From positions 832,001 through 896,000 of the forward strand of contig CBDBLV010000005.1 of the NCBI GenBank assembly GCA_965207225.1: a stretch of DNA of 64,000 bases. Reading direction: 5' to 3'. Below the pieces are notes generated by a model. It saw only the letters and a program-made list of their open reading frames with translations, had not been told where the DNA came from and did not search any database. Source of the DNA: Dehalococcoidia bacterium. GTDB lineage: Bacteria; Chloroflexota; Dehalococcoidia; Plut-88900. The translations under genes and the position numbers were made by a program. Below, in pieces: positions 2,529 through 48,206 of this stretch. Positions within the stretch are counted from its first letter, which is position 1. The number at the start of each line of letters is the position of its first letter.

Positions 2529-2578
2529 AAACTAGAGGGATGCACCTGCGCCCTGGCGCAGGTGCATCCCTCTAGTTT
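2529..2578. repeat. Perfect 24-bp-arm inverted repeat (palindrome)
   Basis: AAACTAGAGGGATGCACCTGCGCC-CT-GGCGCAGGTGCATCCCTCTAGTTT. Confidence 0.95.
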
Positions 2579-18754: not shown

Positions 18755-18774
18755 AGTGGCGGAGGGAGTGGGAT
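18755..18774. repeat. att site: 20-bp direct repeat of the tRNA-Ser 3' end
   Basis: AGTGGCGGAGGGAGTGGGAT identical at 48113-48132. Confidence 0.95.
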
Positions 18775-21464: not shown

Positions 21465-21938
21465 TCGGGCTCTCCAAACTTGACGTTAACTGCCTATTCG
21501 CTGGCTTTATTGGAACAGATCCATGGCATGCAGGTTTACCGGCTCCAGCAACAGATAGTTTACCCATACCCGTTGCTTTTGGACTCCAAAAGGCCTGCCT
21601 GCCCTGTTTGGTAAGGCAGGGCGCTACACCAGGCGTCCCGGTCAGTTTGCGGTGGCGGATACGAGGAGGAGGCCGGTGTCGGCGTATTCGGTGAGCCAGT
21701 CTCTGCCGTCCACGTGGTAATTCGTCCCGTTCGCTAGCGACCAGCCTACCCCGGACGACAGTCCCACAGAGGGGGCGGACTCTACGGAAGTCGTCCTAAA
21801 CGGACGAGTTATGAGTACAGTATGCGGTGGTGGCCTAAACACCCGTTTGTCCACCTGACTGGGGCTGACGGTCCATATGAATAGCCCTACGATGTTCACG
21901 AAGTATTTCCACTGAGATCTAGAACATCGTGAGGTCAT

Positions 21939-22817
21939 ATGAACACTTCAGCCCAAGTCCCGTCAGTTAATTTCCACCTATGGAAGCCCTGCAATATGAA
22001 GTGCAGATTCTGCTTCGCCACTTTCCAGGATGTCGGGCACGTAGTCATGCCTAGCGGACACCTACCCCGCGAAGCGTCCATAGCTGTCGTGGAGGCACTG
22101 GCCGAGGCCGGCTTCGACAAAATCAATTTCGCCGGTGGGGAGCCCATCCTTTGCCCATGGCTACCTGATTTGATACGGCGAGCCCGAGAATTGGGGCTCA
22201 CCACCTCCATAGTCACTAACGGCAGTTTCATCACGCCTGAATGGATGGATCGTGTAGATGGCTGTCTGGACTGGGCGGCGGTAAGCATAGACACGGTGGA
22301 TCCGGAAAAGTTGATGCGCATGGGGAGAAGCACGCGCACCGGTCCAATGAGCGAGGCCGACTACCTGCGGGTCATGGATATGCTCAGACAGCGCGGCATT
22401 CGACTGAAGGTCAATACTGTGGTGACGAGGATAAACTACAATGAGGAATTGGCTGGTTTCATAGCCAAAGCCGGGCCGGAACGCTGGAAACTACTTCAAG
22501 TGCTGCCCGTCAGGGGCCAGAATGATGGATCGGTGGACAGCATGGTGATCACCAGCGAAGAATTCGCCCGCTACGTAGCACGAAATCGATACGTGGAGTC
22601 TAGGGGCATTGTGGTGGTGCCGGAAAGCAATGATCTGATGACCGGCAGCTACGTGATGATCGACCCGGCTGGACGCTTCTTCGACAATGTGGCCGGTACT
22701 CATGTCTACAGCCGCCCCATTAACCAGGTTGGTGTCGAAGCGGCGTTGAGGCAGGTATCGATCGACACAGACAAGTTCAAGTTGCGGGGTGGTCTGTATG
22801 AATGGCAAAGAGCCTGA
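21939..22817 (+). CDS. Prokaryotic viperin (radical SAM antiviral ddhNTP synthase)
   Basis: SVNFHLWKPCNMKCRFCFATF, KINFAGGEP, SIVTNGS, KVNTVV, RWKLLQ, ESNDLMTGSYVMIDPAGRF, RGGLYEW: all viperin hallmarks. Confidence 0.93.
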   Translation: MNTSAQVPSVNFHLWKPCNMKCRFCFATFQDVGHVVMPSGHLPREASIAVVEALAEAGFDKINFAGGEPILCPWLPDLIRRARELGLTTSIVTNGSFITPEWMDRVDGCLDWAAVSIDTVDPEKLMRMGRSTRTGPMSEADYLRVMDMLRQRGIRLKVNTVVTRINYNEELAGFIAKAGPERWKLLQVLPVRGQNDGSVDSMVITSEEFARYVARNRYVESRGIVVVPESNDLMTGSYVMIDPAGRFFDNVAGTHVYSRPINQVGVEAALRQVSIDTDKFKLRGGLYEWQRA

Positions 22818-22824
22818 GGACTAT

Positions 22825-25383
22825 ATGACTGAACACGAGGTGATGCCCCACCTTCCCACTAGCGGCCAAATACTGGGAGCAATAGTCACAAGACTGGGCA
22901 TCAAACACACCCAATTCCAGAGTCGGACGGCCCGCCGTTACTTCTCAGCCGATTTGGAACACCTCGTTAAGGATTCCTCCAGGGACAAGATCATAGCAAC
23001 GATCGCTGAAGTGCTAACCCGCTCCGGGCTGGTTGCGGCGCCGCAGGAAGAAGTGGACGACTACAGGCAATCTGCGTTGGCCTCCATGCTCCGTTGGCAT
23101 GCCGACCATTGGGACCTGCTGCGGTCGTTCGTTCGCCGTAGGACAATGAGAGTCCTGCCCGGTAACTTGCCAAAGGTGTGGGAGGCATACGTCAGGCTCG
23201 CCATCATCGACCTTGCCCTTAGAGTATCCGCCTATCTGCATCTTGCCGGATCGTCCCCAGCAGCAATGGATTTCCTCGCCTGGGCGAGCCATACAGGTCG
23301 AGGTGGCTATCTCAACCAAAAGCGTCGGCAGACTTCTCTCTCCCTTGAAGAGTTTGCAGAGGCTGTAGGCGTGACAGACAACACCGTCGATGCCTGGATG
23401 TATCACGGTGCTCGGCCGTCCAGTGACAACCTCGCGAAGATAGCCGAGACGCTGGCTAACGAAATTCCAGATTCAAATGCAGCGGACATTGCCCTTGAAC
23501 TGCGGGCCCTGTACTGGGTCAGTGACGTCGCCGCTCTGTTGTCCGAGCACATCGGAGGCCGGGCTACAGAAAAGGTCATCGGGCAATTGCGCCGGTACGC
23601 TGAAGCAACCTATCGTGCAATAGAAGAACAGTTTTCGACCGAAAACCGGTCTGAAGACCTCACGGTGCTGGCGGACTTGGGAGTTGGCGCCCGCCTTGCG
23701 AGACCCCTGCTGGCTTCATTAATCGAACACGAGCCGGATGACGGATGGCGGGAAGATCTTCGGGCCACTGGAATGGACTGGGTCCGACGCGTCCTCTCGG
23801 TAAATCTGGACGTTCACCTTGTGGAGGTGGACGACCTCATCCGTAAGACTGATGGGCGTTTTCTTGACGATTGGGATGTTAGCAACCCCGAGGCTTATGC
23901 TCATTACCGGCGTTCCATGGAACTGCGGATGCAGGGGAAACTCCACGAGGCCCTGGCCGAGGTCGAGATTGCTGTCCGGCTAGACCCCCTGGATCCGGCG
24001 AATCACTGTACGCTGGGGTCAGTGAAGACGGGCATAGGCATTGCACGTGAGGATACGGCTCTTATCAAAGAGGGCCTGAATGCATTGTGGCTGGCGGTGA
24101 CGCTTGACCCCAACTGGATCCTCCCATGGACCGAAATCGGCTTGGTGCTACACCATACCGACAGGTCGGCGGAAGCTGTAGAGCACCTGCGAAACGTGAA
24201 TCCGGAACGCGGACCTCTGGATTCGAAATACTACAGCGCACTAGGGGCTGCATACTGGAAGCTGGGTGAGCTGCCCGAAGCCTTGGCAGCGTTCGAGACG
24301 TCACTCGAACTGGACCCTGAGGAGACTTCCGCTTTGCTGGCAGCATCAGAGCTCGCCTTTTTGATTGGCGACGACGAAAAGCACCGGCGGTATCTCAAAG
24401 GGGCCAGGCATTTCGGAGCGGACGAAGACACCCTCAGAGTTTGGGAACTGCTGCGGCAGTTCGGAGAGAAGGGTCAGGACAAGGCTGAAACGGCCGAGCA
24501 TGACCGGAAAATCGCCATCATGGATGCAGTCATCAAGCTAAACCCTGGCGATGACTATGCCTACTTCGCCAGAGGCCGGTCGCATTTCGCCAAGGGTGAC
24601 GAAGACCTTGCCATTGCGGATTTGGACGCCGTTCTACGGTTGAATCCCGACCATGCGGGGGCCCATCTGATACGGGGCGTTCTGATGGGAAACCGGGGAC
24701 AGTGGAAACGTGTGATCACTGACATGACGGAACTTATCCGGCTCAGACCTGATGACCCTGAGGCCTACTATCGTCGGGGCATGGCCTATGGCGAACTGGA
24801 CCTGTTGGATGAGTCGCTAGTCGATTTGTGCGAAGCCATCCGCCTTAAACCCGATCATGCCGAAGCCCACCGTTCCCGAGGTGATTGCCTTCGTTACAAG
24901 GGAGAATACGATAAGGCAATCGTAGACTTCGATGTCGCACTAGAACTCGACCCGAAGAATGCAGCGGCATACATAGGCCGCGGAGCAGCATACCGCATGA
25001 AGGGTGATCTCGACCTGGCCATTGCAGACTACGACGCAACGTTGCGTCTCAAACCCCGAGACCCGCTTGCTTATAGGTTTCGCGGAGATGCCCACACTGC
25101 CAACAGGAACTACGAGCAGGCTATCTCAGACTGCGACATGGCGCTGAAGCTCAGACCTTGCGACCAGATAGCCTACTTCACTCGCGGCAATGCCCATCTA
25201 TTCAGTGGAAGACTTGAATCGGCGTTAGCGGATTTCAATGCGGCAATTGAACTCGAGCCCGTCAGCGGGCGGTTCATTCATGGCCGTGGGGTAGTTCGCG
25301 AATTGTTGGGCGATGGACAAAGCGCTGGTGAGGACTATCAAAAGGCCAGAGATCTGGGGTACAACGTTGACGATATCGAATAG
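22825..25383 (+). CDS. XRE-type HTH + multi-TPR protein
   Basis: HTH segment SLEEFAEAVGVTDNTVDAWMYHGARPS; more than 10 TPRs (A..RG....GD...AI.D....L.L.P). Likely start ATG 22825, whose GAGGA RBS overlaps the viperin stop. Confidence 0.85.
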   Translation: MTEHEVMPHLPTSGQILGAIVTRLGIKHTQFQSRTARRYFSADLEHLVKDSSRDKIIATIAEVLTRSGLVAAPQEEVDDYRQSALASMLRWHADHWDLLRSFVRRRTMRVLPGNLPKVWEAYVRLAIIDLALRVSAYLHLAGSSPAAMDFLAWASHTGRGGYLNQKRRQTSLSLEEFAEAVGVTDNTVDAWMYHGARPSSDNLAKIAETLANEIPDSNAADIALELRALYWVSDVAALLSEHIGGRATEKVIGQLRRYAEATYRAIEEQFSTENRSEDLTVLADLGVGARLARPLLASLIEHEPDDGWREDLRATGMDWVRRVLSVNLDVHLVEVDDLIRKTDGRFLDDWDVSNPEAYAHYRRSMELRMQGKLHEALAEVEIAVRLDPLDPANHCTLGSVKTGIGIAREDTALIKEGLNALWLAVTLDPNWILPWTEIGLVLHHTDRSAEAVEHLRNVNPERGPLDSKYYSALGAAYWKLGELPEALAAFETSLELDPEETSALLAASELAFLIGDDEKHRRYLKGARHFGADEDTLRVWELLRQFGEKGQDKAETAEHDRKIAIMDAVIKLNPGDDYAYFARGRSHFAKGDEDLAIADLDAVLRLNPDHAGAHLIRGVLMGNRGQWKRVITDMTELIRLRPDDPEAYYRRGMAYGELDLLDESLVDLCEAIRLKPDHAEAHRSRGDCLRYKGEYDKAIVDFDVALELDPKNAAAYIGRGAAYRMKGDLDLAIADYDATLRLKPRDPLAYRFRGDAHTANRNYEQAISDCDMALKLRPCDQIAYFTRGNAHLFSGRLESALADFNAAIELEPVSGRFIHGRGVVRELLGDGQSAGEDYQKARDLGYNVDDIE

Positions 25384-25800
25384 AAAAATGGAAACATTAC
25401 CTGTCGCAAACTGCGCCTGCTTGACCCTTTTGAAATAAGAAAACTCGCTGGGATGTAAACGGATACTGCGTACACGAATTATCCGATTTCGTTGATGGTG
25501 AAGGTGGCCTCTCCCGTGGAGGGACTTGAAGACATGGTGCTGGAGCCAGAAGCTGTCGGAAGGAAAGGTGATGGGGGTTAGCCTGGAGCCTATCCGGTTC
25601 GGTAGAAATGACCGCTCCGAAAAGACCGAATAGGAAGAGGAATGGCCGCCGCGAAGCTGCACCTGGGCTGTTGCATCCGCTACTAACAACACTCCCACTA
25701 GCCAAGCAGGCAATGCTGCATCACCGTGTTACAGTGATTCCCCCGATGGAGTGTTTAGATCATCAGCCTCCAGGAGCTCCATTCGTGTAGTGTAATTCGT

Positions 25801-26211
25801 GTCGATAGCCTCGGTCTTAGCGACACCAGATGGGGTTCGGAGTCGGTGTTGGACTGGTCAACTTTGTCGGTCTGAGTGGACGCGGTAGTGTCAGTTGTCA
25901 AAGACGGAACGCAATCCCCTACGTTGGCGGAAAATTATTCGGGGTAATTCCGTTCCAGGCTCTAGCTCAGCGAAAGCTGAGCAACGTACACGGTGATGAC
26001 TCACAATCGCGCCTGAACGGGATTATAGGATCCGATCAGAGCCCGAATTGGAGGGCGGAGCCATCCCTAGTCGAGAGGTAGCTCCTTCACGGGAACGTCC
26101 ACGACAACGGATAGGCTCTTATCAGAAGACTCTCGGAATGAAGGGGGTCGGATTCTGACATGGATCCCGGCTGGGAGAAGAGGCAGTACCCCGACTGCAC
26201 TCATCTCCTAG
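25801..26211 (+). ncRNA. Putative large structured non-coding RNA (unassigned family)
   Basis: Multiple nested helices rich in G-U pairs on the + strand, a GAAA-tetraloop hairpin (25965-25982), and a candidate pseudoknot (loop 26188-26193 with 25940-25945). No credible ORF. Confidence 0.6.
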
Positions 26212-26213
26212 AC

Positions 26214-26301
26214 ATGGGGATCGGGGAAAGGCAGACGCGCTGCACTTGGAATGCAGTTGCCATTCGTGTCCGTAGGGGTTCGAGTCCCCTCACCCTCACC
26301 A
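26214..26301 (+). tRNA. tRNA-like element: class II (Leu-like) body, anticodon TGG (Pro), degenerate acceptor/D stem
   Basis: GGCAGACGC D-loop region, CTGCA-CTTGGAA-TGCAG anticodon arm, ~17-nt variable region, AGGGG-TTCGAGT-CCCCT T-arm, 3' ACCA. Confidence 0.7.
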
Positions 26302-26359
26302 CCTCTCATGATAAACTTCCCTCGCAATACCGATGCATGCTTAGAAGGGGACTGTAAAG

Positions 26360-26638
26360 ATGACTGATGATTCGCTCAAACTCTTCCAAGACGCACTGCA
26401 GAACGATATCCCCATGTCCAAGCTTCCTACTAGGACTCTAGCCGCCTTCTTCGTATCTGTAGCTCACGCTGCCGTGGAGACCGATGCAGAAACGTTTATG
26501 AGTCATCTAAGTCAAGCCATCGTGAAGGCGCATCAAAAATATCCGAAAATTCTTGTAGACGACGAGAAACCACTTCTAAAGCTCCTTGAAATGCTTCAGG
26601 AGACAGTCGAGGACTTAAGTCGCCGCCGGCCTTCCTAA
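26360..26638 (+). CDS. Hypothetical helical protein
   Basis: 92-aa ORF with AGGGG RBS; no recognised motif. Confidence 0.55.
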   Translation: MTDDSLKLFQDALQNDIPMSKLPTRTLAAFFVSVAHAAVETDAETFMSHLSQAIVKAHQKYPKILVDDEKPLLKLLEMLQETVEDLSRRRPS

Positions 26639-26797
26639 TTTCTTCGAGCATCACTCTAATCTCTTGCTTCCGGTGTCCTATCGCACATTAGCCCCTTTTT
26701 TCGCGCTGGTACCTCAGCTGGTCATACGCGATTTACTGGAACTCAGTTACACCCGCAGACTCCACCAGTGGTATCCTGCTGGTAGAATGGCCCTACT

Positions 26798-27328
26798 GTG
26801 AATATACGAATTGCTGGGATGTCAGACTATCCACCAGCTTGGGCCCAACTCCTGACCGATAGGCCAGTCGAGCAATTTCTGCGTCGAGCAGTCATATACA
26901 CGCATGAGATCGACTACCTGGTTTTGGTATCCCCCTTCATTGGGCCACTTAAGGGAGTCTCTCCGAGCATGTCGAGGTTGATAAAGAGGATTGAAAGAGA
27001 CCGAATCCCCACCTATGTCGTCACTAATGAGCCAGATAAGCCTTCCCAGCAGAAGGCGGTTGACATGCTCTCAAAATGCCGCTACACGGAGATCCGTTAC
27101 AACGCTTCCTTGCACGCGAAAGTTTACGTTTGCAAGGCACGCCAAAATGGGTTCGCGATGCTAGGATCTGGAAACTTAACAGCAACCTCGATTTCAAAAA
27201 AGATTGAAGTGGGCATTATGATCAGAGATAAAGGACCGGGAGTCTACGTCTTCAACGACTTATGGCGGTGGGGGTCTCACAGACTCCGCACACTAAGCGA
27301 AAGTAAATTGATCAAGGGCATGTCCTGA
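26798..27328 (+). CDS. Stand-alone phospholipase D-family (HKD) nuclease
   Basis: VSPFI, LHAKVY, GSGNLT, IEVGI motifs. Confidence 0.85.
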   Translation: MNIRIAGMSDYPPAWAQLLTDRPVEQFLRRAVIYTHEIDYLVLVSPFIGPLKGVSPSMSRLIKRIERDRIPTYVVTNEPDKPSQQKAVDMLSKCRYTEIRYNASLHAKVYVCKARQNGFAMLGSGNLTATSISKKIEVGIMIRDKGPGVYVFNDLWRWGSHRLRTLSESKLIKGMS

Positions 27329-27482
27329 GAGTGGGCCCACGGGAGATATCCGCATTGTAGAAGGTCTCCTATCATTTTATGCGGCAGTAGCCACTACACC
27401 TGTAGGTCTCGAAATCCAAACCCAGTGACCTCATTTTCTGGAAAAGCACTAATCTCAGATGAAAACACAGGAGGATCGTTAA

Positions 27483-28643
27483 GTGGAATTTAAAGACTGG
27501 TTTTGCCTTAATGCACGTGACAGCTTCACGATAGACCCTTTGATCTATCCCTCCGACGACCGGTTCTACTTTGGACGGTCAGACATCAAATCTAGGCTAT
27601 TTGCCCAAATCAAAAGGTCTTTCATCGATCCCGGTGTGCCAAAAGTAGTGCTCTTCGGTGCCTACGGTACAGGTAAGACCCAGACTCTGCACCATATCGA
27701 TCATTACCTGAAGACATCTCCCCCTAAATCGCTCCGCCACAAGCCTAGAGCAGTGCACGTCGTCCTTGAGATGAGTAGCAAGTCCTCCTACAGGGAATGG
27801 CACCTCCAGTTACTGGAGGCATTGTCTCGGGACACGGTTACCACATGGGTGGAGAGAGCGTTTGAGAAGGCACCAGACTGGGACGAGTTCTTGAAGAGGA
27901 CACTAAACGACCCGAACCTAATCCAGGCCGTGAAAAACCTCCGAGGAGGAGGGGAGCCGCCCCTCACAGCTTGGAAATGGCTTACAGGCCAGAAGCTCTC
28001 CGCAGCGGAACTGCAGCGGCTTAACTTGACCAGGAGCCTGGGTGACGTTGGGTCTGGCGATTTGGTGAATGCCATCGTAGCACTGGGTAGACTAGCCACA
28101 GAGAGCAGCGGTGAGAAGTTGATACTCCTAATGGATGAGGCCGAGTCGTTTAGCCGCATACGAGACGTAGATGCAGTCGAGTCAGTCCACAACTATCTGC
28201 GCCGCTTAGCAGATCAACAGAACTCGTCACTTGGGTTCGTGATTTCCACTTTTGCCAATATTGAAGACGACATGCCGGACATAATCCAGCGGGCAGACGT
28301 CAGGTCGAGGATAGGCGCCAGCAACTACCTCGAGATCCCACCACTGCCCGGTGTCGAGGATGTCAAGGCCTTCCTTGAGGAGCTATTGCAGGAGCTGATA
28401 GACCAGGATATGGCAGAGGCACGGATCCAAGAGAAAGGCTTGAGTTCTACCCGGGAGACCTACCCGTTCGACGCTGAGGGGTTCGGCCTACTTTGTGACT
28501 ATGCGTCGCAAGACCCTGTAAAGGCACTCCCGCGGAACATTATTCACGCAGTGAACGAGTGTGCCATCTCCGCATGGGACCTGGAGAGTCTAGTGATTGA
28601 TAGCACTATCATTAATGAAGTAGCACCTCTAGTCTTTTCCTAG
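27483..28643 (+). CDS. P-loop AAA+-type ATPase 1
   Basis: Walker A GAYGTGKT, Walker B LLMDEAE, putative arginine finger DVRSRI, YPF...PRNII lid. Confidence 0.85.
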   Translation: MEFKDWFCLNARDSFTIDPLIYPSDDRFYFGRSDIKSRLFAQIKRSFIDPGVPKVVLFGAYGTGKTQTLHHIDHYLKTSPPKSLRHKPRAVHVVLEMSSKSSYREWHLQLLEALSRDTVTTWVERAFEKAPDWDEFLKRTLNDPNLIQAVKNLRGGGEPPLTAWKWLTGQKLSAAELQRLNLTRSLGDVGSGDLVNAIVALGRLATESSGEKLILLMDEAESFSRIRDVDAVESVHNYLRRLADQQNSSLGFVISTFANIEDDMPDIIQRADVRSRIGASNYLEIPPLPGVEDVKAFLEELLQELIDQDMAEARIQEKGLSSTRETYPFDAEGFGLLCDYASQDPVKALPRNIIHAVNECAISAWDLESLVIDSTIINEVAPLVFS

Positions 28644-28645
28644 AG

Positions 28646-30016
28646 ATGAAACGATTCACGATCCGTCCAGCAATTTCCCACGGCCGACCAGTGCGAATTG
28701 GTAGTGGAGACTCGAAAGGCGACTGGGTGTCCCTTGGCAGGCTCGCTGAGGCCGGACCAGCCTCTCAAGTCCAGCACGACCTAAGTGGTGAGCACGTGGT
28801 GGCGATCGTTGGGAAGCGGGGTTCGGGAAAGTCGTATGCTCTCGGAGCCCTCCTCGAGGGCTTGGCAATCGGAGAGGCGGGATCAGCCCTCGCCAGTACA
28901 GACCGTAGAAGGGCAGTATTGCTCTTCGATACGCTGGGCATCTTCCAATGGATGGATGTCCCGGTAACCGCAGCCAACAATTCACCAGAAGTGCAGAGAC
29001 AATACCAGTCCCGGTCTGGCTGGGACCTTCCTGAAGCTGCGGTAGACGCCTTGGTCTGGAGGCCGCGTGGGCCCGGTCCAGCTCCACCACAACAGATGGA
29101 ACTCGTGGTCAAGCATAGTGACCTTGATGTCTCCGACTGGGCTTACCTCTTCGGTTTAGACCTGCTCCAAGACCGCATGGGGCAGTTGCTGAATGACGCT
29201 TTCTACAAAGTCACCACCGAAGGCTGGTATGCGGGAAGCACACCGAAGGCGCCGACGCAGGACTACAGCCTAGCTAACGTCATTGAATGCATAAACTCGG
29301 ATCCCGAGTTGAACACTACATATCAGTCGGAGACTAGGCGGGCGATAGTCCAACAGCTCACGACGTACTCCAGAAACCCGGTTTTTGGTGAAGACGGGGT
29401 AGGATTGCGGGAGCTATTGAAGCCCGGATACATCAGCGTCGTTGTAATGAACCGGATGAATACGGGGCTCCGCTTCGCACTCATCACTTCGATAGTTAGG
29501 CGCCTCATGCGCTCTAGGATCGCAGCGTCCGAGATCGAAAAAGAGCTGAGGATCCGGGGTAACATGACTCAGGAGCAACGCTTATCGCTTGAGGCCCAGT
29601 TAGCGGACGCCGTACCACCAACATGGATAGCTGCTGACGAGGCACAGAACTTCCTTCCTTCGGAGCGGAATACCGGGGCATCGGAAGTGCTAATTCAGTT
29701 GGTTAGAGAAGGGAGGAACTATGGCCTCTCGTTCGTTGTCACTACACAGCAGCCAACCGCGATTGACCCGAGGATAATGGCCCAGGTGGACACTTTGATG
29801 GCCCACAAGCTGACAGTGCAGGCTGACATTGAACAGATTCGCAGGAACCTAAAGAGCCAGCTACCATCCCAGATAAGGTATGGACACCGAGAACTCGGAC
29901 TCGAAGGGCTGCTTCACGAGCTTGATGTCGGCCAAGCAGTCGTATCCAACACCGATGCCCCTAGGACTCTTGTCATAGATGTGAGACCCCGGCTGTCTGT
30001 GCACGGGGGGTTCTAA
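28646..30016 (+). CDS. HerA/FtsK-family ATPase (DUF87-like)
   Basis: HVVAIVGKRGSGKSY, IAADEAQNF, LVREGRNYGLSFVVTTQQP. Confidence 0.9.
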   Translation: MKRFTIRPAISHGRPVRIGSGDSKGDWVSLGRLAEAGPASQVQHDLSGEHVVAIVGKRGSGKSYALGALLEGLAIGEAGSALASTDRRRAVLLFDTLGIFQWMDVPVTAANNSPEVQRQYQSRSGWDLPEAAVDALVWRPRGPGPAPPQQMELVVKHSDLDVSDWAYLFGLDLLQDRMGQLLNDAFYKVTTEGWYAGSTPKAPTQDYSLANVIECINSDPELNTTYQSETRRAIVQQLTTYSRNPVFGEDGVGLRELLKPGYISVVVMNRMNTGLRFALITSIVRRLMRSRIAASEIEKELRIRGNMTQEQRLSLEAQLADAVPPTWIAADEAQNFLPSERNTGASEVLIQLVREGRNYGLSFVVTTQQPTAIDPRIMAQVDTLMAHKLTVQADIEQIRRNLKSQLPSQIRYGHRELGLEGLLHELDVGQAVVSNTDAPRTLVIDVRPRLSVHGGF

Positions 30017-31264
30017 GTGTATTCCGACCTAGGCCTACGGAGACCCAGCGTATTAGATACACCACGGAGGTCCATGCAACGGCTCGGCTTACTAAAGTTG
30101 CTCGTAGGCGTATCAGCCCGGGGGTCTGCGAACACCCTCCTATCGACCGGTGGGCAAGTGATCAAAGCTCTGACCAGCAAGGTAGTCCTCCCCTGGGACA
30201 ACCGAACCGCCTCCTATGTCCGCTCTGCGCTCTCGGTGCAGACAAACGCAAGGCTCAGGGAACAAGCCGCCGGCTTTTTGTCACCAGGGTACTCTGGACC
30301 TCGGCAAGTCGCTTTAGAGCTACAGGACGCTTACCTCGCCCTCGGCCGTCTCCCGTCCCGCCGGGGCCGCTTGGCAACTACAGACGATTCGAGGTTTCCG
30401 CATTGGGGGATAGCGTTAGGACTGACTAGGAAAGAGCCCTTTGACCCCCTGGTACGCGGGAACCTTCTCCTTAAACTAACTAAGGATGCGGAGCTTTTGG
30501 GATTCAGCCAATTTGACCCCTTGGTCAACCCCTTAGAGCTGACCAGGCCCCAACGGGTGTTTTTTATGTACGTCATCTTAAAGAGAGACCTCAGCATCCT
30601 GGTGCCCCTATATGAGCGGCTGGCAGAGCTTAACGGAACGTTTTCTGATATGGAAGCGGGGGATCTGTTGCCAGAGTTGTATTTCTCGGCCTCTAAGGCA
30701 CTCAAGCGCACGGGCAGGGGCGGGAACGACTCAGTCTGGGCGAACCAACTCGCTGAGACGGCCTCGGCTATAAGGGCACGCCAAGGCAAGTCCTACGGCA
30801 AAACCGTAAGGGAGCAGACCGTAACCCCCCGGCTAGAGCCGTTTGTTGATCTAGGCATACTCGCCAAGACTTCCGCATATTCTTACGAGTATCGTTTCAC
30901 TCCTGAGGGACGGGAATTTTTCTCCAATATGAAAGGGAAGTGGAACGGTTCATTCTCCTGGTTTGGCAAGGAGGCCGCAACTGTTTTCGGATATGGAGAC
31001 AGGGAGGTGTCGAGGGACACCGAATTACTCAGGCTCCTTTTTTCGGCTTGGGGGGAGATCAAGAGCCACCTAGGTTATTCTCCCATCGATGAGACCCTGC
31101 TCTTAGGACTGATTCATGGCCTTGAGGAAGGAGCTGGCTGGTTTGACTTGGGCAAAGCCTACAATACGCTACGCTCTGCCCAGAAGGCAGTGCCGGGACT
31201 TCTCAGGTTTAACATGGACCGGTACGGCCGCCTTTCGGTCGTCCGATTTATGCGTCCCCCATAG
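30017..31264 (+). CDS. Hypothetical protein, possibly tandem winged-helix
   Basis: Abuts the HerA stop; PRLEPFVDLGIL...YRFTPEG resembles a wHTH wing. Confidence 0.65.
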   Translation: MYSDLGLRRPSVLDTPRRSMQRLGLLKLLVGVSARGSANTLLSTGGQVIKALTSKVVLPWDNRTASYVRSALSVQTNARLREQAAGFLSPGYSGPRQVALELQDAYLALGRLPSRRGRLATTDDSRFPHWGIALGLTRKEPFDPLVRGNLLLKLTKDAELLGFSQFDPLVNPLELTRPQRVFFMYVILKRDLSILVPLYERLAELNGTFSDMEAGDLLPELYFSASKALKRTGRGGNDSVWANQLAETASAIRARQGKSYGKTVREQTVTPRLEPFVDLGILAKTSAYSYEYRFTPEGREFFSNMKGKWNGSFSWFGKEAATVFGYGDREVSRDTELLRLLFSAWGEIKSHLGYSPIDETLLLGLIHGLEEGAGWFDLGKAYNTLRSAQKAVPGLLRFNMDRYGRLSVVRFMRPP

Positions 31265-31270
31265 TATGTC

Positions 31271-32383
31271 ATGAATAGTGACTTCAGCCATTTGTTCATC
31301 ACTAGGTGGCCGTTTCGGACAGTGCCCGACGCTGAGTCAAGTAAGCTATGGGCCGACCGGTCACGTCTCCGTGCTCAAGTCAAAAAGCTGTTGTGGCGCT
31401 GGGGCCGCAGCGACCAAAGTACCATCCACCTTATGTGGGCCGACCTCGGCGCCGGCAAGAGCCATACCCTGAGGCACATACAGTCGCGCCTGTTGGACTC
31501 GCCTGAGTCGGGAATGTATCCCATCTATTCCGTGATGCCGCGGGAACTGCGGACGTTCCTCGATGTGTACCAAGCCATACTCGCTGGCCTAGACCTAAAC
31601 CGGTTGGGACAGATGTCTGTGGCTGCCCTTCGTGCCGAAGGGTCCAAAGACAAATTGGTCAAGAACGCATTCCCCGGTCTACCTGAAGCGGTCACGGCGT
31701 TAGTGGCGCTGCAGGCTGAGAGCGAAAGTGACCGGACAGTTGCCGCTCAGTGGCTCAGAGGTACGCGGGGCCTCACGAAGCGTGACCTACGGCCGCTGGG
31801 AGCTATCCGGAGCATCAAGACCACCGATGAGGCAGTCGCAGCCCTTAGCGGGATCATGTATGTCGTCAGAGTGGCAGAGAAAACGAGTAGGTTCGTAGTG
31901 ATGTTGGACGAAGCCCAACGCCTTGGGCAGGCTTCAAATAAGGTTCGCCAAGACGTCAACGTGGGGTTGCAGACTTGGTACGACTCTAGTCCAAATAACC
32001 TCACCCTGATTATGTCGTTCGGAAGTGGGAACGAGGACTATGTCCGCCATATGGTCAGTCAAGAATTGCAGCGCCGTGAAGACTATGACCGCTTGCGACT
32101 CGAGCTGTTCGAGCCCGCAGAAATAGTCGAATTTGTTGCCGATCTCCTGCAACAGAGCCGGTCAGGCGAACCACCACATGAGTGGTTCCCCTTCACGGAG
32201 ACCCTCGTCTGCGAACTTGCGACACGTATGTGCAACAACGGAGGAGTGACCGCCGGAGCAATAATGAAGGCCTTTAACGCCGTACTGACAGAACTGGACT
32301 ATGAGATCGGAACTGGCGACGGTGACGAGGTAGGGGAAGCTTCCTTAGTTAGGAGGGGGCTTGAAGCGTTAGAGACCGGTTAG
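31271..32383 (+). CDS. P-loop AAA+-type ATPase 2
   Basis: Walker A ADLGAGKS, Walker B VMLDEAQ, ELQRR, WFPF; architecture parallels ATPase 1. Confidence 0.85.
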   Translation: MNSDFSHLFITRWPFRTVPDAESSKLWADRSRLRAQVKKLLWRWGRSDQSTIHLMWADLGAGKSHTLRHIQSRLLDSPESGMYPIYSVMPRELRTFLDVYQAILAGLDLNRLGQMSVAALRAEGSKDKLVKNAFPGLPEAVTALVALQAESESDRTVAAQWLRGTRGLTKRDLRPLGAIRSIKTTDEAVAALSGIMYVVRVAEKTSRFVVMLDEAQRLGQASNKVRQDVNVGLQTWYDSSPNNLTLIMSFGSGNEDYVRHMVSQELQRREDYDRLRLELFEPAEIVEFVADLLQQSRSGEPPHEWFPFTETLVCELATRMCNNGGVTAGAIMKAFNAVLTELDYEIGTGDGDEVGEASLVRRGLEALETG

Positions 32384-32404
32384 CCTTTCTGGAGGTGGGA
32401 CTCC

Positions 32405-32887
32405 ATGTCAGATGACCTCGTCTGGGACTCAGCTGATGACCCCGGCTGGGATATTTATGACGAGCTGTGGCCCCACATCCGGCACCTGGAGCATGAGGCA
32501 GGCGAAGGGAGGCTCCCCAGGTGTGCATTTGAGGGGCGGTGTGAGGACTGTCCTGTAGCGTCCGGGAAGACGTGTCCGATCTCAACTGATAACGACTTTA
32601 TCTCGCTATTGCTCTACTACAGTGCGACCGATTCCGGACTGAGTCAACTCACGGCCCAGTCATCGCAGTCGTGGACTCAAACAGTTAGAGAACAACGGTT
32701 GAACTTGATTGCGAGGGTCTTGCAGAGGAACAAACTAGCGATGCACTGGGAACTGGTTGCGAAAATAGTGAAGGAGGAAGAGCCTGTGCTGTTCCCGTCG
32801 CCTAGGTCAGTCCTTGCTACCCTCAGGGGTAACCCTGAACGTTTCTCAATGGAATCGCCCGGTTCATATTTCCTAAACGCGGACTGA
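32405..32887 (+). CDS. Small Cys-cluster protein with a putative C-terminal winged helix
   Basis: C-x5-C-x2-C-x7-C (CAFEGRCEDCPVASGKTC); MHWELVAKIV...SVLATL...F....PGSYFL; GGAGG RBS. Confidence 0.6.
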   Translation: MSDDLVWDSADDPGWDIYDELWPHIRHLEHEAGEGRLPRCAFEGRCEDCPVASGKTCPISTDNDFISLLLYYSATDSGLSQLTAQSSQSWTQTVREQRLNLIARVLQRNKLAMHWELVAKIVKEEEPVLFPSPRSVLATLRGNPERFSMESPGSYFLNAD

Positions 32888-33109
32888 TCATTCCTGCAGC
32901 TTGGCCGCTGGTGACGGTTAAGTCAGTACCTTGACTCCTAAGTCCCCACTTACTGTGGGCATTGAGGCCGAGGTAACCTTGAAAGTTAATTGTTGTGTCA
33001 CTACAATACCACTGACTCAAGAAAAAGGCGGCCAACGTAGACATGTTATCGTCCGCGCCGGGCATTCCTCACCTTTCGGGCTCCTTACAAAGAGTGGATG
33101 TAGCATAAG

Positions 33110-33310
33110 ATGCCCCTCGAAGATTACCTCACAGCTATCGAGGCTGCGCGCCGGCTCCGTGTGCATCCGGAGACCGTAAAGCGCCTCTGCAGGCAGGGTG
33201 ACCTCCCCGCGGAGAAAGTCCACAATACGTGGTTGATACACCAGGACACGCTCGCAGTGTTCGCCGGGACGTACGACCCACGGCCTGGGGCTAAGAGGCG
33301 GCTGCTCTAG
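33110..33310 (+). CDS. Excisionase-like (MerR/HTH_17) DNA-binding protein
   Basis: YLTAIEAARRLRVHPETVKRLCRQGDLPAEKV..TWLI. Confidence 0.85.
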   Translation: MPLEDYLTAIEAARRLRVHPETVKRLCRQGDLPAEKVHNTWLIHQDTLAVFAGTYDPRPGAKRRLL

Positions 33311-33311
33311 T

Positions 33312-34526
33312 ATGGAAATCGACAATCGCTCACACATATCCCTCTTCACGGGAGCCGGGGGGCTAGACCTCGGGATAGACCGGTCGGGCTTTACCACCCT
33401 TGTAGCCGTCGAAAAGGACAAGTATGCCCAGGAGACCCTCAGGTCTAACAGGGCACATTTCGAGTTCCCCAGCTTCGAGTTGCTCGCTGATGCGACCGAG
33501 TTAACAGGGGAAGACCTGCTAAACGCGGCGGGAGTCAAGAGGGGGAACCTAGACTTGCTGAGCGGTGGCCCGCCTTGCCAGGCCTTTAGCACGGCAGGTC
33601 ACCGCGCTTCTCTCTCTGATCCCCGCGGGAGCCTACTCGGCCGGTTCCTACAACTCGTAGGGGAACTCGAGCCAAGGTTCTTCGTCCTCGAGAACGTACG
33701 CGGCGTCCTGTCCGCGGCCCTCAGGCACCGCCCCCTCGATAGGCGGGGGGAGGGACATGAACCGCTCAGTGAGGACGAGGAGCTGGGTAGCCTCCTCAGT
33801 TCCGTGATCCTTCCATGGATCACCGTACGTCTGCGTTACCAAGTCTCATATGGCCTAGTGAATTCCGCGGACTACGGCGTACCTCAGTTACGCCACAGGG
33901 TCGTCTTCATAGGGAGCCGGGATCACGAGCTAAGTGGCTGTGGACAACCCCCCAGCATTGGGGATCTGGTGCCGGCGACCCACTCCGGGCAGCCAGACAG
34001 CGCTCTGCCTCCGTGGCGTACCCTAAGGGACGCCTTGGCCAGACTACCGGTCACCGACTCCGAAGGTGCACGTTACAGTCCGGCGAGGGCGGCGGTGATG
34101 AGGAATGTGCCCCAAGGCAGGAACTGGCGCTTCCTGAGGGACAACTTCGGGGATGACTACCTGCGCTCGGTCATGGGAGGGGCATATGACTCTACCGGGG
34201 GCCGCGTCGGCTTCTGGCGCAGGCTCAACCTGGATAAACCGTCCCCGACACTGCCGGCCAGCCCGGTTCAGAAGGCGACGAGCCTCTGCCACCCCACGGA
34301 GACTAGGCCCTTGAGTGTGCGGGAGTACGCGCGCGTGCAACAGTTCCCCGACGACTATGTCTTCGCCGGCCCGACCTCGGCCAAATATACGCAGATCGGC
34401 AATGCCGTGCCAGTAGGACTGGCCTACGCGGTAGGAAGGGCGGTCGGTCGGTTCTACCTAGGCAATAGGGTTGCGAAGGATCCGGGGGTGCCCCAAGTCC
34501 AGCCCGAACTACTCCCGGCTGGGTAG
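33312..34526 (+). CDS. DNA (cytosine-5)-methyltransferase
   Basis: Motif I FTGAGG, IV GGPPCQ, VI ENV, VIII QLRHRV, X YTQIGNAVP. Confidence 0.95.
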   Translation: MEIDNRSHISLFTGAGGLDLGIDRSGFTTLVAVEKDKYAQETLRSNRAHFEFPSFELLADATELTGEDLLNAAGVKRGNLDLLSGGPPCQAFSTAGHRASLSDPRGSLLGRFLQLVGELEPRFFVLENVRGVLSAALRHRPLDRRGEGHEPLSEDEELGSLLSSVILPWITVRLRYQVSYGLVNSADYGVPQLRHRVVFIGSRDHELSGCGQPPSIGDLVPATHSGQPDSALPPWRTLRDALARLPVTDSEGARYSPARAAVMRNVPQGRNWRFLRDNFGDDYLRSVMGGAYDSTGGRVGFWRRLNLDKPSPTLPASPVQKATSLCHPTETRPLSVREYARVQQFPDDYVFAGPTSAKYTQIGNAVPVGLAYAVGRAVGRFYLGNRVAKDPGVPQVQPELLPAG

Positions 34527-46800: not shown

Positions 46801-47955
46801 TTATTGTTCGCGGATCAGGTAGTCTGCCCAGAGCTGCATTAGTGTGCGTCTACGCTCAAACAAGTCTGAACGGGCGTATGCCCGCTCGGTGGAATTACCC
46901 AGGCTGTGGGCAAGGGCCGCCTCGGAGACTACCCATGGGGTATCCGTCTGCTCCAGTGTCCAGTTCTTGAAGCTGCTGCGGAATCCGTGGACGGTGGCAC
47001 GTTCAGCCAGCCCGACGGAACGCAGTACCTTCGTCAAAGTCATATCGGACATCGGAGACCCTGCCTTTTGAACCGAAGGGAACAATAGCCCAGAATCGTC
47101 GCGCAGTACTGATGCCTCACCAAGTAGGTCGAGGGTTTGCCTGCTGAGGGGTACCCGGTGTTCCGTTCCAGCCTTCATTCGCCTAGACGGAATCCGCCAT
47201 TCGCGTCCCTGCAGGTTCATCTCGTCCCAGGTTGCACCCCTTGCTTCACCCGAACGTGCAGCTGTCAGGACAAGGAAGCGGAAGCATAGCTTCGTAGCCA
47301 ACGACGCCTGAGACGACTCAACTGTCGCTAGGGCATCCCCAACCGCCTGGTAGGGAAGTGCTCTGAAGTGGGCCTTCACCTTCGGCATGGGAGGCAAGGC
47401 GCCGTCAATCGGCTCCCCAGCCGGGTTGGACTCGACGAAGCCGTGGGCCATGGCCCACCGGAAAATGGCTCTCATGCGCTGACGCACCCGTCGGGCTGTC
47501 TCGGGCCGGGATGACCATATGGGAGTGAGAACACTTAGTACATCTCCCCGCTCTATCCTGTCCAAGGACGTGTGGCCCAACTTCGGCATGGCGTGGCGCT
47601 CCAGGGTCTGAATCCAGCCTGAAGCGTGACGGGGGTTGCGCCACCGGGGCCTATTGGCTTCATGGACAGCGTAAGCGGCTTCCCTGAACGTTGGCATTGC
47701 AGGGGATCGCTTTTCGGCCACTGGGTCTCGACCCTCAGCAATTGCGGCCCTATGATCAACTGCCTTTTCACGAGCCTGGGCGAGGCTGACGGAAGGATAT
47801 CCGCCCAAGCCGATATCGCGTCGGCGTCCATCGACAGTGATGCGTAGAACCCACGATTTCCGACCGGCTTTGCTGATGAAAAGGTGCAGGCCGCCGCCAT
47901 CAGAGTAGCGCCCTGGATCCTTCAGGGCCTTTACCCGAGTTGCAGAGAGGGCCAC
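46801..47955 (-). CDS. P4-like tyrosine integrase
   Basis: Arm domain PGRYSDGGGLHL...IGLGGYPSVSLAQARE; catalytic R (ARSGE), K, HGFR, H, Y. GTG start with GGAGG RBS. Confidence 0.95.
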   Translation of the reverse strand: MALSATRVKALKDPGRYSDGGGLHLFISKAGRKSWVLRITVDGRRRDIGLGGYPSVSLAQAREKAVDHRAAIAEGRDPVAEKRSPAMPTFREAAYAVHEANRPRWRNPRHASGWIQTLERHAMPKLGHTSLDRIERGDVLSVLTPIWSSRPETARRVRQRMRAIFRWAMAHGFVESNPAGEPIDGALPPMPKVKAHFRALPYQAVGDALATVESSQASLATKLCFRFLVLTAARSGEARGATWDEMNLQGREWRIPSRRMKAGTEHRVPLSRQTLDLLGEASVLRDDSGLLFPSVQKAGSPMSDMTLTKVLRSVGLAERATVHGFRSSFKNWTLEQTDTPWVVSEAALAHSLGNSTERAYARSDLFERRRTLMQLWADYLIREQ

Positions 47956-48114
47956 AGATACCTCCAAAAATCCCAAATTGTTCCCACGAATGTTACCACA
48001 GTTGTTGTGGGAACTCAAAAGATTAGGAGGGTGAGAGAAGGTAGACCAAATGGCAATATTAGCTATGGAGCAAGCGTAAAACGAGAAAAAAGAGGATGTC
48101 TAAAAGAGTTGTAG

Positions 48115-48206
48115 TGGCGGAGGGAGTGGGATTCGAACCCACGATCCAGGTCTCCCCAGATAAGCGCTTAGCAGGCGCCCGCACTAGGCCACTATGCGAT
48201 CCCTCC
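48115..48206 (-). tRNA. tRNA-Ser(GCT)
   Basis: GGAGGGA...CT-GCT-AA anticodon loop, long variable arm, GTTCGAATCC, TCCCTCCGCCA. Confidence 0.97.

What the first reader, a model, noticed from the sequence alone, without database searches (positions are those of the whole stretch)
25801..26211. Unannotated ~410-nt highly structured RNA inside the defence island, abutting a tRNA-like element
Seen: this region has no credible ORF and folds by eye into many nested helices. These are CGGTC/GACTG plus CGACACC/GGTGTTG (25812-25856); CTTTG/CAAAG plus CTGA/TCAG (25862-25903); TAATTCCGTT/AACGGGATTA plus CAGGC/GCCTG (25945-26025) enclosing a perfect GCTCAGC-GAAA-GCTGAGC tetraloop hairpin; GGATCC/GGATCC plus TCAGAGCCCGA/TCGGATTCTGA (26028-26167) enclosing a multibranch domain; and a terminal hairpin (26171-26211). 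The ACCCCG loop of that hairpin is complementary to CGGGGT at 25940-25945, a candidate long-range pseudoknot. Imperfect pairs are mostly G-U on the + strand, which suggests selection on RNA structure on that strand. Known: large ornate ncRNAs such as GOLLD and ROOL occur next to tRNAs in prophages and mobile elements. Inference: this is either a divergent member of such a class or a new RNA, possibly a component of the neighbouring viperin or PLD/ATPase systems.
Basis: partly seen in the sequence, partly recalled or inferred. Interest (0 to 1): 0.88.

Follow-up and report, generated by a model that had tools for sequence, protein, structure and literature searches.

The report
Orphan hairpin cluster beside decayed tRNA
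A roughly 275-base stretch inside a mobile defence island folds into unusually stable stem-loops next to a worn-out leucine-type tRNA copy, but it has no relatives anywhere searched and belongs to neither neighbouring defence system, so it is probably a junction remnant and not a new ornate RNA.

Summary
Only 25940-26213 folds better than shuffles: three adjacent domains give z -6.2, -3.1 and -4.7, each with 0 of 200 shuffles as stable. The first two helix sets (25806-25906) and the 550 nt upstream do not beat shuffles.

Rfam 15 has no match at gathering score. The best permissive match is a 13-bit tmRNA hit on the T-arm and acceptor.

The "tRNA-like element" (26215-26301) is a leucine-type class II tRNA copy with anticodon UGG and a damaged acceptor and D stem. 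ARAGORN calls it only at 95% threshold.

The stretch lies in a 29-kb island integrated at tRNA-Ser. It is single-copy. No DNA or covariance-model relative turned up in any collection searched.

The viperin/HTH-TPR module and the PLD/ATPase module are each conserved elsewhere without it. No RNA-seq run was listed.

Best reading: an orphan junction segment, made of a hairpin cluster plus a decayed tRNA copy, with at most a passive processing or stability role. A private novel RNA cannot be excluded or tested by covariation.

The parts
18755..18774 (.). Left copy of the 20-nt perfect direct repeat that marks the island boundary. It is a copy of the 3' end of tRNA-Ser.
   Evidence: family D7: 18755-18774 and 48113-48132, 100% identical
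21939..25383 (+). Upstream module: prokaryotic viperin (21939-22817) and an HTH+TPR protein (22789-25383).
   Evidence: pVip 1.4e-88; viperin_w_prok 2.3e-91; HTH_3 plus TPR. Conserved as a pair in L034-L036, with similarity ending at 25362-25379.
25384..25939 (+). ORF-free spacer with no fold beyond chance.
   Evidence: z +0.9, +0.6, -0.3, -0.5 and -0.3 for five sub-windows
25940..26027 (+). Domain 1. A long closing stem (25945-25960 with 26011-26025) encloses a junction with a perfect 7-bp GAAA-tetraloop hairpin (25965-25982) and two small hairpins.
   Evidence: -40.3 kcal/mol, z -6.2, 0 of 200 shuffles. Minus strand z -3.6. As DNA, z -3.95 and -4.2.
26028..26167 (+). Domain 2. A multibranch fold closed by the two GGATCC copies.
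   Evidence: -57.5 kcal/mol, z -3.1, 0 of 200. Not significant with DNA parameters (z -0.95).
26168..26213 (+). Domain 3. An imperfect 16-bp hairpin whose loop, ACCCCG, is complementary to 25940-25945.
   Evidence: -24.4 kcal/mol, z -4.7, 0 of 200. Complementarity.
26215..26301 (+). Leucine-type class II tRNA-shaped element. Anticodon loop CUUGGAA (anticodon UGG at 26247-26249), UUCG-capped variable arm, intact T-arm, A73 and encoded CCA. The acceptor has 2 mismatches, the D stem has a G-G mismatch, and position 8 is G in that register.
   Evidence: alignment to the genome's own Leu tRNAs and to G003 tRNAs. (not called by ARAGORN at default). (called tRNA-Pro(tgg), 86 nt, at 95% threshold). 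(tRNA-clan best 13.3 bits).
26360..26638 (+). Orphan 92-aa ORF between the tRNA-like element and the PLD gene.
   Evidence: It finds only itself among 5.8 billion proteins and among 1.84 billion representatives read by HMMER. No Pfam, NCBIfam or PADLOC hit.
26798..34526 (+). Downstream module: PLD-like nuclease, AAA ATPase (386 aa), HerA-like ATPase (456 aa), unknown 415-aa protein, AAA_22 ATPase (370 aa), a 160-aa ORF and a C5 DNA methylase.
   Evidence: The core genes are conserved together in 6 other genomes of the class.
46801..48206 (-). Tyrosine integrase (46801-48018) next to tRNA-Ser(GCT) (48115-48206). This is the island's integration site.

Best explanation
The 1.4-kb stretch 25384-26797 is an orphan junction segment inside a 29-kb tRNA-Ser-integrated defence island. 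It lies between two independently conserved defence modules.

The segment contains:
- about 550 nt of unstructured filler;
- a roughly 275-nt cluster of three stable stem-loop domains (25940-26213);
- a decayed copy of a leucine-type class II tRNA (26215-26301);
- an orphan 92-aa ORF.

The tRNA-shaped element is most likely a leftover or cargo pseudo-tRNA of the kind that integration events leave in this genus.

The flanking operons run on the same strand, so the segment is probably read through. If so, the hairpin cluster and the tRNA-like fold would at most act passively. The tRNA-like fold could be an RNase P/Z entry point, and the hairpins could block exonucleases and so uncouple the two operons.

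Shown: the fold stability, the orphan status, the module boundaries and the tRNA-Leu ancestry.
Inferred: transcription, any processing, and the scar origin.
For: Island bounds and integrase.

Module boundaries:
- pVip+HTH-TPR relatives L034-L036 are 65-66% identical in protein, and nucleotide similarity stops at 25362-25379.
- A co-occurring variant contig, about 87% identical over 24769-25370, runs on with unlike sequence after 25370.
- The PLD-AAA-HerA-u415 genes are conserved in G304, G197, G479, G693, G450 and G586. Similarity starts at the PLD gene or, in G693 and G450, at the u415 gene that precedes it.

No relative of 25384-26215 beyond matches of 31 nt or less:
- own genome;
- 61 relatives;
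- 401 genomes of the phylum;
- phage and plasmid collections;
- two exact 23-25-mers in viral contigs;
- the domain-1 covariance model in 151 genomes, best non-self 21.5 bits at E 0.024 per genome, and in 15 fetched loci.

The 92-aa ORF is an orphan.

tRNA-Leu ancestry and damage.

Precedent in the same genus: in G007 a canonical tRNA-Leu(CAA) is followed about 680 nt later by a second copy with a mutated acceptor strand and anticodon CCA.

Stability of the three domains.
Against: - Three adjacent domains at z -6.2, -3.1 and -4.7, and a combined z of -4.4, are more structure than a neutral remnant needs.
- Domain 2 is significant only with RNA parameters, and the + strand folds better than the - strand. 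This hints at selection on an RNA.
- 25384-26420 has an excess of perfect inverted repeats: 7 ten-mers against 0.47 in shuffles, 0 of 300 shuffles as high, and only 2 of 126 windows of the 64-kb window as high. Direct repeats are at chance.
- No intact partner tRNA-Leu lies in the window, so the scar origin is an inference.
- G003 carries two well-formed Leu-type tRNAs with anticodons GCC and UGC. Such elements are therefore not always decayed.
- No transcript data exist for any part of this.
Confidence: 0.45

Rival explanations
1. A genuine, lineage-private structured non-coding RNA of about 275-365 nt. It would consist of three folded domains fused to, or processed at, a tRNA-like 3' module, be made from the + strand, and have a function of its own in the island. 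That function could be as a decoy, sensor or scaffold RNA for defence, or for control of the island.
For: - Sub-domain z-scores with 0 of 200 shuffles as stable, and z -4.4 for 25936-26304.
- RNA parameters and the + strand are favoured.
- 9 G-U pairs and no A-C 1x1 mismatch in the + strand fold.
- Excess of inverted repeats, including four perfect long-range 10-11-mers. One of them has pairing probability 0.30, and forcing it costs 3.5 kcal/mol.
- An ORF-free gap of about 975 nt on the same strand as its neighbours.
- GOLLD and ROOL are reported near tRNAs and in prophages (PMC5737381, passages read).
Against: - No homologue in any collection searched, so there is no covariation evidence.
- No Rfam family.
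- Not kept with either flanking system.
- No promoter-like or terminator-like site within 25384-26359 on the + strand; the sites found in the wider 21500-27500 scan are no more than shuffles give.
- Hairpins of equal or greater z occur elsewhere in the window, at 2521, 14131-14176 and 21871.
- A single sequence selected by eye inflates the apparent significance.
Confidence: 0.2
2. A DNA-level element of the island. The hairpins would form in single-stranded DNA during rolling-circle replication or transfer, as a single-strand origin or an oriT-like site. Alternatively they would be protein-binding inverted repeats at the end of a former integrated element.
For: - The island encodes a Replic_Relax/MarR protein (39237-40934) and an integrase.
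- Domains 1 and 3 remain significant with DNA parameters on both strands: z -3.95 and -4.2, and -3.8 and -3.0.
- Inverted repeats are in excess while direct repeats are not.
- That single-strand origins are non-coding, strand-specific hairpin clusters is recalled knowledge, not from a call.
Against: - Domain 2 is not significant as DNA (z -0.95 and -1.3).
- The relaxase-like gene is 13 kb away.
- No similarity to plasmid records.
- No conserved origin motif was tested.
Confidence: 0.12
3. A functional, unusual tRNA with a leucine-type body and a UGG (proline) anticodon, carrying a long structured 5' leader. It would belong with the Leu-type tRNAs bearing non-leucine anticodons seen in related genomes. 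Bacterial LeuRS does not read the anticodon (recalled), so it could be leucylated and misread CCN codons.
For: - ARAGORN calls it at 95% threshold.
- The anticodon arm, UUCG variable arm, T-arm, A73 and CCA are intact.
- Well-formed relatives exist with anticodons GCC and UGC in G003, CGC in G503 and CUC in G645.
- Irregular tRNAs linked to transposable elements or toxin-antitoxin loci are described in a review (PMC7609411, passage read).
Against: - In the register that keeps A73-CCA, the acceptor stem has two mismatches, position 8 is G, and the D stem has a G-G mismatch.
- The Rfam tRNA-clan score is at most 13.3 bits, against a gathering score of 29 for tRNA.
- The folded element alone is no more stable than shuffles (z -0.1).
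- The G007 parallel looks like decay.
Confidence: 0.08
4. Chance or neutral sequence: hairpins left by local inverted duplications, with no function at either the RNA or the DNA level.
For: - Orphan status everywhere searched.
- The whole gap folds no better than shuffles (z -1.7, 3 of 20 shuffles as good).
- Background 411-nt windows reach z -3.15 in 1 of 24.
- The region was picked by eye.
Against: - Three neighbouring sub-domains each had 0 of 200 shuffles as stable.
- The inverted-repeat excess had 0 of 300 shuffles as high.
- The perfect 10-11-mers do not extend into lower-identity flanks, as old duplications would.
Confidence: 0.12

Closest known systems
GOLLD and ROOL large ornate RNAs
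   Same: Multi-domain predicted fold, position next to a tRNA-shaped gene, and location in a mobile element. PMC5737381 states that both are often near tRNAs and in prophages (passages read).
   Different: No match to any Rfam 15 model, even at E<=10 over 25300-26500. The stable core is about 275 nt, against 581 nt on average for ROOL (same paper). No homologues exist, so there is no conserved structure.
tmRNA (RF00023)
   Same: T-arm, acceptor 3' strand and encoded ACCA give a weak whole-model alignment (13.3 bits, E 0.0056).
   Different: The score is far below gathering (47). ARAGORN finds no tmRNA or tag peptide here. In the register that keeps A73-CCA, position 70 is C and not the U of the G3-U70 pair. 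The genome has a canonical tmRNA elsewhere (142 bits, tag GKRQLALAA).
Duplicated or displaced tRNA gene copies at integration sites of genomic islands
   Same: A tRNA-Leu-like copy with a worn acceptor strand and an altered anticodon lies next to mobile DNA. G007 of the same genus shows the same pattern beside its canonical tRNA-Leu(CAA).
   Different: No intact partner copy is present in the window. The island itself uses tRNA-Ser, with only a 20-nt repeat.
Irregular or allo-tRNA-like genes of mobile elements
   Same: A long variable arm combined with an anticodon that does not fit the body. [quoted passage not shown]
   Different: This element has the ordinary 7/5 acceptor/T-stem layout and a Leu-type D loop, not the 8/4 or 9/3 layout that defines allo-tRNAs.
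Single-strand origins of rolling-circle plasmids and conjugative elements (recalled, no call)
   Same: A non-coding, orientation-dependent cluster of imperfect hairpins in a mobile element that encodes a relaxase-like protein.
   Different: Domain 2 is not stable as DNA. There is no sequence match in 72,556 plasmid records.

Membership tests
GOLLD / ROOL / HEARO / OLE and every other Rfam 15 family | Match to the family covariance model at its gathering score | tested here: not met
   the only match in the 64-kb window is tRNA-Ser. (E<=10, 25300-26500): only sR53 at 22.6 bits (gathering 49), mir-2162 at 16.3 (65) and tmRNA at 13.3 (47).
GOLLD / ROOL | Size and conserved multi-junction architecture across many homologues | tested here: not met
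   The stable core is about 275 nt. No homologue was found.
GOLLD / ROOL | Location near tRNA genes and in prophage-like or mobile DNA | tested here: met
   It abuts a tRNA-shaped element inside an integrase-bounded island.
tmRNA | Covariance-model score, tag reading frame, and alanine-type acceptor (G3-U70) | tested here: not met
   13.3 bits against a gathering score of 47. No tmRNA call by ARAGORN, even at 80% threshold. Position 70 is C in the A73-CCA register.
Canonical tRNA | Cloverleaf with paired acceptor and D stems and U8, detected by standard tools | tested here: inconclusive
   Not called at the ARAGORN default. Called as an 86-nt tRNA-Pro(tgg) at 95% threshold, with one acceptor mismatch in a shifted register. 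Rfam score is below gathering.
Component RNA of the viperin (pVip) module | Kept next to the module in relatives | tested here: not met
   In 3 of 3 related loci, and in one co-occurring variant contig, similarity ends at the HTH-TPR stop. Different genes follow: NYN and SWIM-domain genes in L034/L035, and unannotated, mostly opposite-strand ORFs in L036.
Component RNA of the PLD/AAA/HerA module | Kept upstream of the operon in relatives | tested here: not met
   0 of 6 related operons have a similar sequence, a tRNA or an R1 hit. At least 3 of 6 have no large upstream gap, and 1 of 6 (G304) has an unrelated ORF-poor gap of about 1 kb.
Integration scar (displaced tRNA copy) | Partial or decayed tRNA copy with an intact partner copy at the other end of an inserted element | tested here: inconclusive
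   The decayed Leu-type copy is shown. No intact tRNA-Leu lies in the window. A parallel case exists in G007.
Single-strand origin / oriT | Strand-specific ssDNA hairpins that act with a cognate Rep or relaxase | not testable with these tools
   Only DNA-parameter folds and the presence of a Replic_Relax gene 13 kb away.

The most novel reading that the evidence does not exclude
The island makes a private RNA of about 360 nt: three compact domains ending in a leucine-type tRNA mimic with a proline anticodon. This RNA is an active part of anti-phage defence or island control. It could be a tRNA-shaped bait or sensor whose cleavage, charging or processing is read out by the neighbouring nuclease/ATPase genes. 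Alternatively it could belong to a wider, undescribed set of island-borne Leu-type tRNAs with non-leucine anticodons that cause deliberate mistranslation.
Probability: 0.1. Interest if true: 0.75.

Novelty: new member of a known kind. Interest (0 to 1): 0.3.

Why it matters
If the conservative reading holds, this is an ordinary by-product of island assembly. Stable hairpins and a worn tRNA copy sit at the seam between two defence cassettes. The lesson is that a by-eye "ornate RNA" needs homologues before it counts.

It would matter only if the core proves to be a discrete transcript. A tRNA-mimic-tipped RNA private to a defence island would then be a new kind of RNA player in phage defence.

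Two side results may be more useful than the RNA itself:
- A PLD-AAA-HerA-unknown(-AAA-C5 methylase) gene set recurs in 6 other genomes of the class.
- Leu-type tRNAs with non-leucine anticodons occur sporadically in this class.

Tried and rejected
- RNA expression: the look-up of sequencing runs listed no RNA holder, only 4 DNA runs of one sample. This says nothing about expression.
- Read laying on those four runs gave one identical 22-kb contig over the region and no variants inside 25384-26797, so no population covariation could be read.
- Known RNA classes: rejected by Rfam.
- tmRNA: rejected.
- Permuted tmRNA: ARAGORN found none.
- Decayed protein gene: six-frame tblastn against the organism's own genome gave nothing below E 0.68. 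7 ORFs had no Pfam hit at E<=1. The 83-aa ORF had no homologue.
- Repeat or MITE: the region is single-copy in the genome, and no terminal or direct repeats bound the segment.
- Remnant of the tRNA-Ser att site: the 24-nt tRNA-Ser 3' sequence occurs only at 48119. The repeat is at 18755, not here.
- Other tRNA fragments upstream: only 8-10-nt matches and one nhmmer hit at E 0.23.
- Alternative 5' acceptor strands at 26052 and 26143 pair with the 3' strand, but about five such matches are expected by chance in 900 nt (my estimate).
- Homologue hunts that found nothing.
- The PLD query in genome contigs gave one distant locus (L033) without a gap or tRNA.
- The gap after HTH-TPR in L035 is not structured (z -1.2).
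- Supplements of the papers were not consulted.

Full report
**What is there.** The finding lies in a 975-nt gap (25384-26359) with no credible ORF.
- The gap follows an HTH+TPR protein gene (22789-25383), which itself follows a prokaryotic viperin gene (21939-22817).
- It precedes a 92-aa ORF (26360-26638) and a run of + strand genes. These are a PLD-like nuclease, an AAA ATPase, a HerA-like ATPase, an unknown 415-aa protein, an AAA_22 ATPase, a 160-aa ORF and a C5 methylase.
- The whole set sits in a 29.4-kb island. A perfect 20-nt direct repeat (18755-18774 and 48113-48132) copies the 3' end of tRNA-Ser(GCT) at 48115-48206. A tyrosine integrase gene (46801-48018) lies beside that tRNA.

**Check of the observation.**
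- As one 411-nt piece, the + strand folds to -163 kcal/mol, z -3.2, with 1 of 100 shuffles as good. The - strand gives z -2.2.
- Twenty-four random 411-nt windows of the same genome average z -0.8 (sd 1.1), and one reaches -3.15. The full span is therefore unusual but not extreme.
- Splitting the span shows where the signal is:
  - 25806-25860 and 25858-25906 are at chance (z -0.5 and -0.3).
  - 25440-25810 is at chance or worse.
  - 25940-26027 (z -6.2), 26028-26167 (z -3.1) and 26168-26213 (z -4.7) each beat all 200 shuffles.
- 25936-26304 as a whole gives z -4.4, 0 of 100.
- The whole gap gives only z -1.7.
- In a 90-nt scan of 1007 + strand windows (1-45270), the best window of the region ranked sixth. 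It came behind hairpins at about 2521, 14131-14176, 2476 and 21871.
- On the - strand the three domains score z -3.6, -2.9 and -2.5.
- With DNA parameters, domains 1 and 3 stay significant on both strands, but domain 2 does not.
- The + strand fold has 9 G-U among 91 pairs and no A-C 1x1 mismatch. The - strand fold has 5 G-U among 90 pairs.
- The proposed pseudoknot extends to 8 bp, but a pair of that length is expected about once by chance in 400 nt (my estimate).
- An unexpected extra: 25384-26420 holds far more perfect inverted repeats than shuffles do. There are seven 10-mers against 0.47, and three 11-mers against 0.10, with 0 of 300 shuffles as high. Direct repeats are at chance, and only 2 of 126 windows of the 64-kb window do as well.
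- Four of these are long-range pairs: 25472/25793, 25586/26108, 25719/25988 and 26211/26408. They compete with the local domains. Forcing one at a time costs 3.5-9.6 kcal/mol against an MFE of -348, and one has pairing probability 0.30.

**Known families.**
- Rfam 15 at gathering scores finds only tRNA-Ser in the window.
- The permissive scan of 25300-26500 finds only three sub-threshold hits. The relevant one is tmRNA at 13.3 bits (gathering 47), resting on the T-arm, acceptor strand and ACCA.
- The genome has its own canonical tmRNA on another contig (142 bits; tag GKRQLALAA) and 49 tRNAs.
- The stretch is therefore not GOLLD, ROOL, HEARO, an intron, RNase P or tmRNA by the only membership test available.

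**The tRNA-like element.** Aligned with the genome's own class II tRNAs, 26215-26301 is clearly leucine-type.
- The D-loop to anticodon-stem segment is identical over 14 nt to the genome's own tRNA-Leu(CAG).
- It has a UUCG-capped variable arm, an intact T-arm, A73 and encoded CCA.
- Its anticodon loop reads CUUGGAA, giving anticodon UGG.
- The 5' part is damaged: two acceptor mismatches, G at position 8 and a G-G mismatch in the D stem.
- ARAGORN misses it at default and calls it tRNA-Pro(tgg) at 95% threshold.
- Its nearest relative is an 89-nt, well-formed Leu-type tRNA with anticodon GCC in a genome of the same genus (G003). A second such tRNA, with anticodon UGC, lies 575 nt further on in G003.
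- A pattern search of 301 genomes of the class found six such tRNA-shaped elements, in 5 of the 301 genomes. They are the window's own, G003 twice, G007, G503 (CGC) and G645 (CUC). It also found three non-tRNA matches. The reversed control pattern gave three matches.
- In G007 the odd copy (CCA) sits about 680 nt downstream of the canonical tRNA-Leu(CAA). It differs from it in the acceptor 5' strand and the anticodon, which is the picture of a displaced, decaying duplicate.
- That is the best model for the window's element, although no intact partner is present here.

**Is the stretch part of a neighbouring system?** No.
- The pVip+HTH-TPR pair recurs in three metagenome loci (65-66% protein identity). 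Nucleotide similarity runs from 21845 or 22784 to 25362-25379 and stops there. NYN- and SWIM-domain genes follow in L034/L035, and unannotated, mostly opposite-strand ORFs follow in L036. None of the three has a tRNA.
- In the sample's own contigs, a second variant of the HTH-TPR gene (78 differences in 602 nt) runs on with unlike sequence after 25370.
- The PLD-AAA-HerA-u415 genes recur in G304, G197, G479, G693, G450 and G586. Some of these also carry the AAA_22 and C5 methylase genes.
- None of the six has a similar sequence, a tRNA or a hit of the domain-1 model upstream.
- At least three of the six have no sizeable gap. Only G304 has an ORF-poor gap of about 1 kb, which is AT-rich, unrelated in sequence and itself fairly stable (z -3.2, 0 of 20).

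**Homologues of the stretch itself.** None were found.
- The organism's own genome holds only the stretch itself.
- In 61 relatives, only the tRNA-like 3' part matched, plus one 22-nt match.
- In 401 genomes of the phylum, matches were 31 nt or less, at E of 0.003 or more.
- Among 50,697 phage records, only a 41-nt T-arm match was found, in two records of one phage. Among 72,556 plasmid records there was none.
- Two exact words searched in viral contigs found none.
- A covariance model of domain 1 searched in 151 genomes gave a best non-self hit of 21.5 bits, at E 0.024 per genome.
- The 92-aa ORF finds only itself among 5.8 billion proteins and among 1.84 billion representatives.
- Covariation, the decisive test, therefore cannot be run. 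No RNA run was listed.

**Interpretation.** The segment 25384-26797 is a private seam between two cassettes of a mobile defence island.
- The most economical account is a decayed Leu-type tRNA copy, with the adjoining end of whatever element carried it.
- It is probably read through from the co-oriented upstream operon. In that case the tRNA-like fold could be cut by RNase P/Z, and the hairpins could protect the upstream 3' end. This step is inferred, not shown.
- The strength and clustering of the folds, the RNA-specific stability of domain 2 and the inverted-repeat excess keep two other readings alive. One is a real private RNA on the + strand. The other is a single-stranded-DNA element of the island.
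- I put the readings at 0.45 (junction remnant), 0.20 (private RNA), 0.12 (DNA-level element), 0.08 (working odd tRNA with leader) and 0.12 (no function at all).

**Novelty and score.** Nothing here can be filed under a known RNA family, but nothing shows a new one either.
- As a seam with a tRNA-derived remnant and hairpins, it is a new instance of a familiar kind of island architecture.
- Interest is 0.3.
- The boldest reading still open is a tRNA-mimic-tipped defence RNA, or deliberate mistranslating Leu-type tRNAs on islands. I give it about 0.1.

Noticed in passing
window 18755-48132: A 29.4-kb island integrated at tRNA-Ser(GCT). It is bounded by a perfect 20-nt direct repeat, with a tyrosine integrase next to the tRNA. 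Its cargo includes a viperin, the PLD/ATPase set, a C5 methylase with an EcoO109I-like endonuclease, an HhH-GPD glycosylase, a Replic_Relax/MarR protein and a 1205-aa HTH/ORC-Cdc6-like ATPase.
   Followed up: partly
window 26798-34526; L040, L041, L062-L065: The genes for PLD-like nuclease, AAA (386 aa), HerA-like ATPase (456 aa) and an unknown 415-aa protein recur together in 6 other genomes of the class. An AAA_22 ATPase follows in 3 of them (L062-L064) and a C5 methylase in 2 (L063, L064). Gene order varies: the u415 gene comes first in G693 and G450. PADLOC gives only partial hits (DrmC, BrxD, mad8, HerA). This is a candidate uncharacterised methylation-linked defence system.
   Followed up: partly
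window 21939-25383; L034-L036: A viperin gene overlapping the start of an 864-aa protein with an XRE-type HTH and many TPR repeats is conserved as a pair in three metagenome contigs and in a co-occurring strain variant. The pair looks like a unit.
   Followed up: partly
L018 1459-1547 and 2123-2211 (G003); L052 1489-1575 (G503); L053 1482-1569 (G645); L049 1481-1567 (G007): Leucine-type class II tRNAs with a long variable arm carry anticodons for other amino acids: GCC, UGC, CGC, CUC and CCA. The G003 pair is well formed and lies among small ORFs next to a methylase fragment. The G007 copy is a decayed duplicate about 680 nt after the canonical tRNA-Leu(CAA), with two small ORFs in between that were not analysed.
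   Followed up: partly
window 2529-2578: A 23-bp perfect palindromic hairpin followed by a U-run, then a second hairpin. It lies in an intergenic gap. z is -8.3 for 2470-2615. It is probably a terminator.
   Followed up: partly
window 14125-14270: Three consecutive strong hairpins (z -5.75) after the + strand ORF that ends at 14042; a minus-strand ORF (14346-14702) ends about 75 nt downstream. Probably terminators.
   Followed up: partly
window 21860-21965: A long imperfect hairpin (z -4.5, 0 of 200 shuffles) spans the region just upstream of the viperin start codon (21939) and overlaps it. It could be a regulatory structure or an operator.
   Followed up: no
L040 5339-5434 (G304): A 17-bp perfect stem closes a roughly 60-nt interior, in the ORF-poor gap of about 1 kb upstream of the related PLD operon. 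It has no sequence similarity to the window's core.
   Followed up: partly
G000 contig C5:448353-448434 (outside the window): ARAGORN calls an 82-nt second tRNA-Arg(tcg) in addition to the 76-nt one on C4. Its sequence looks atypical.
   Followed up: no
window 25491-25552: A weak match to the archaeal C/D-box sRNA family sR53 (22.6 bits against a gathering score of 49, E 0.011). It lies in the unstructured part of the gap and is taken as chance.
   Followed up: no
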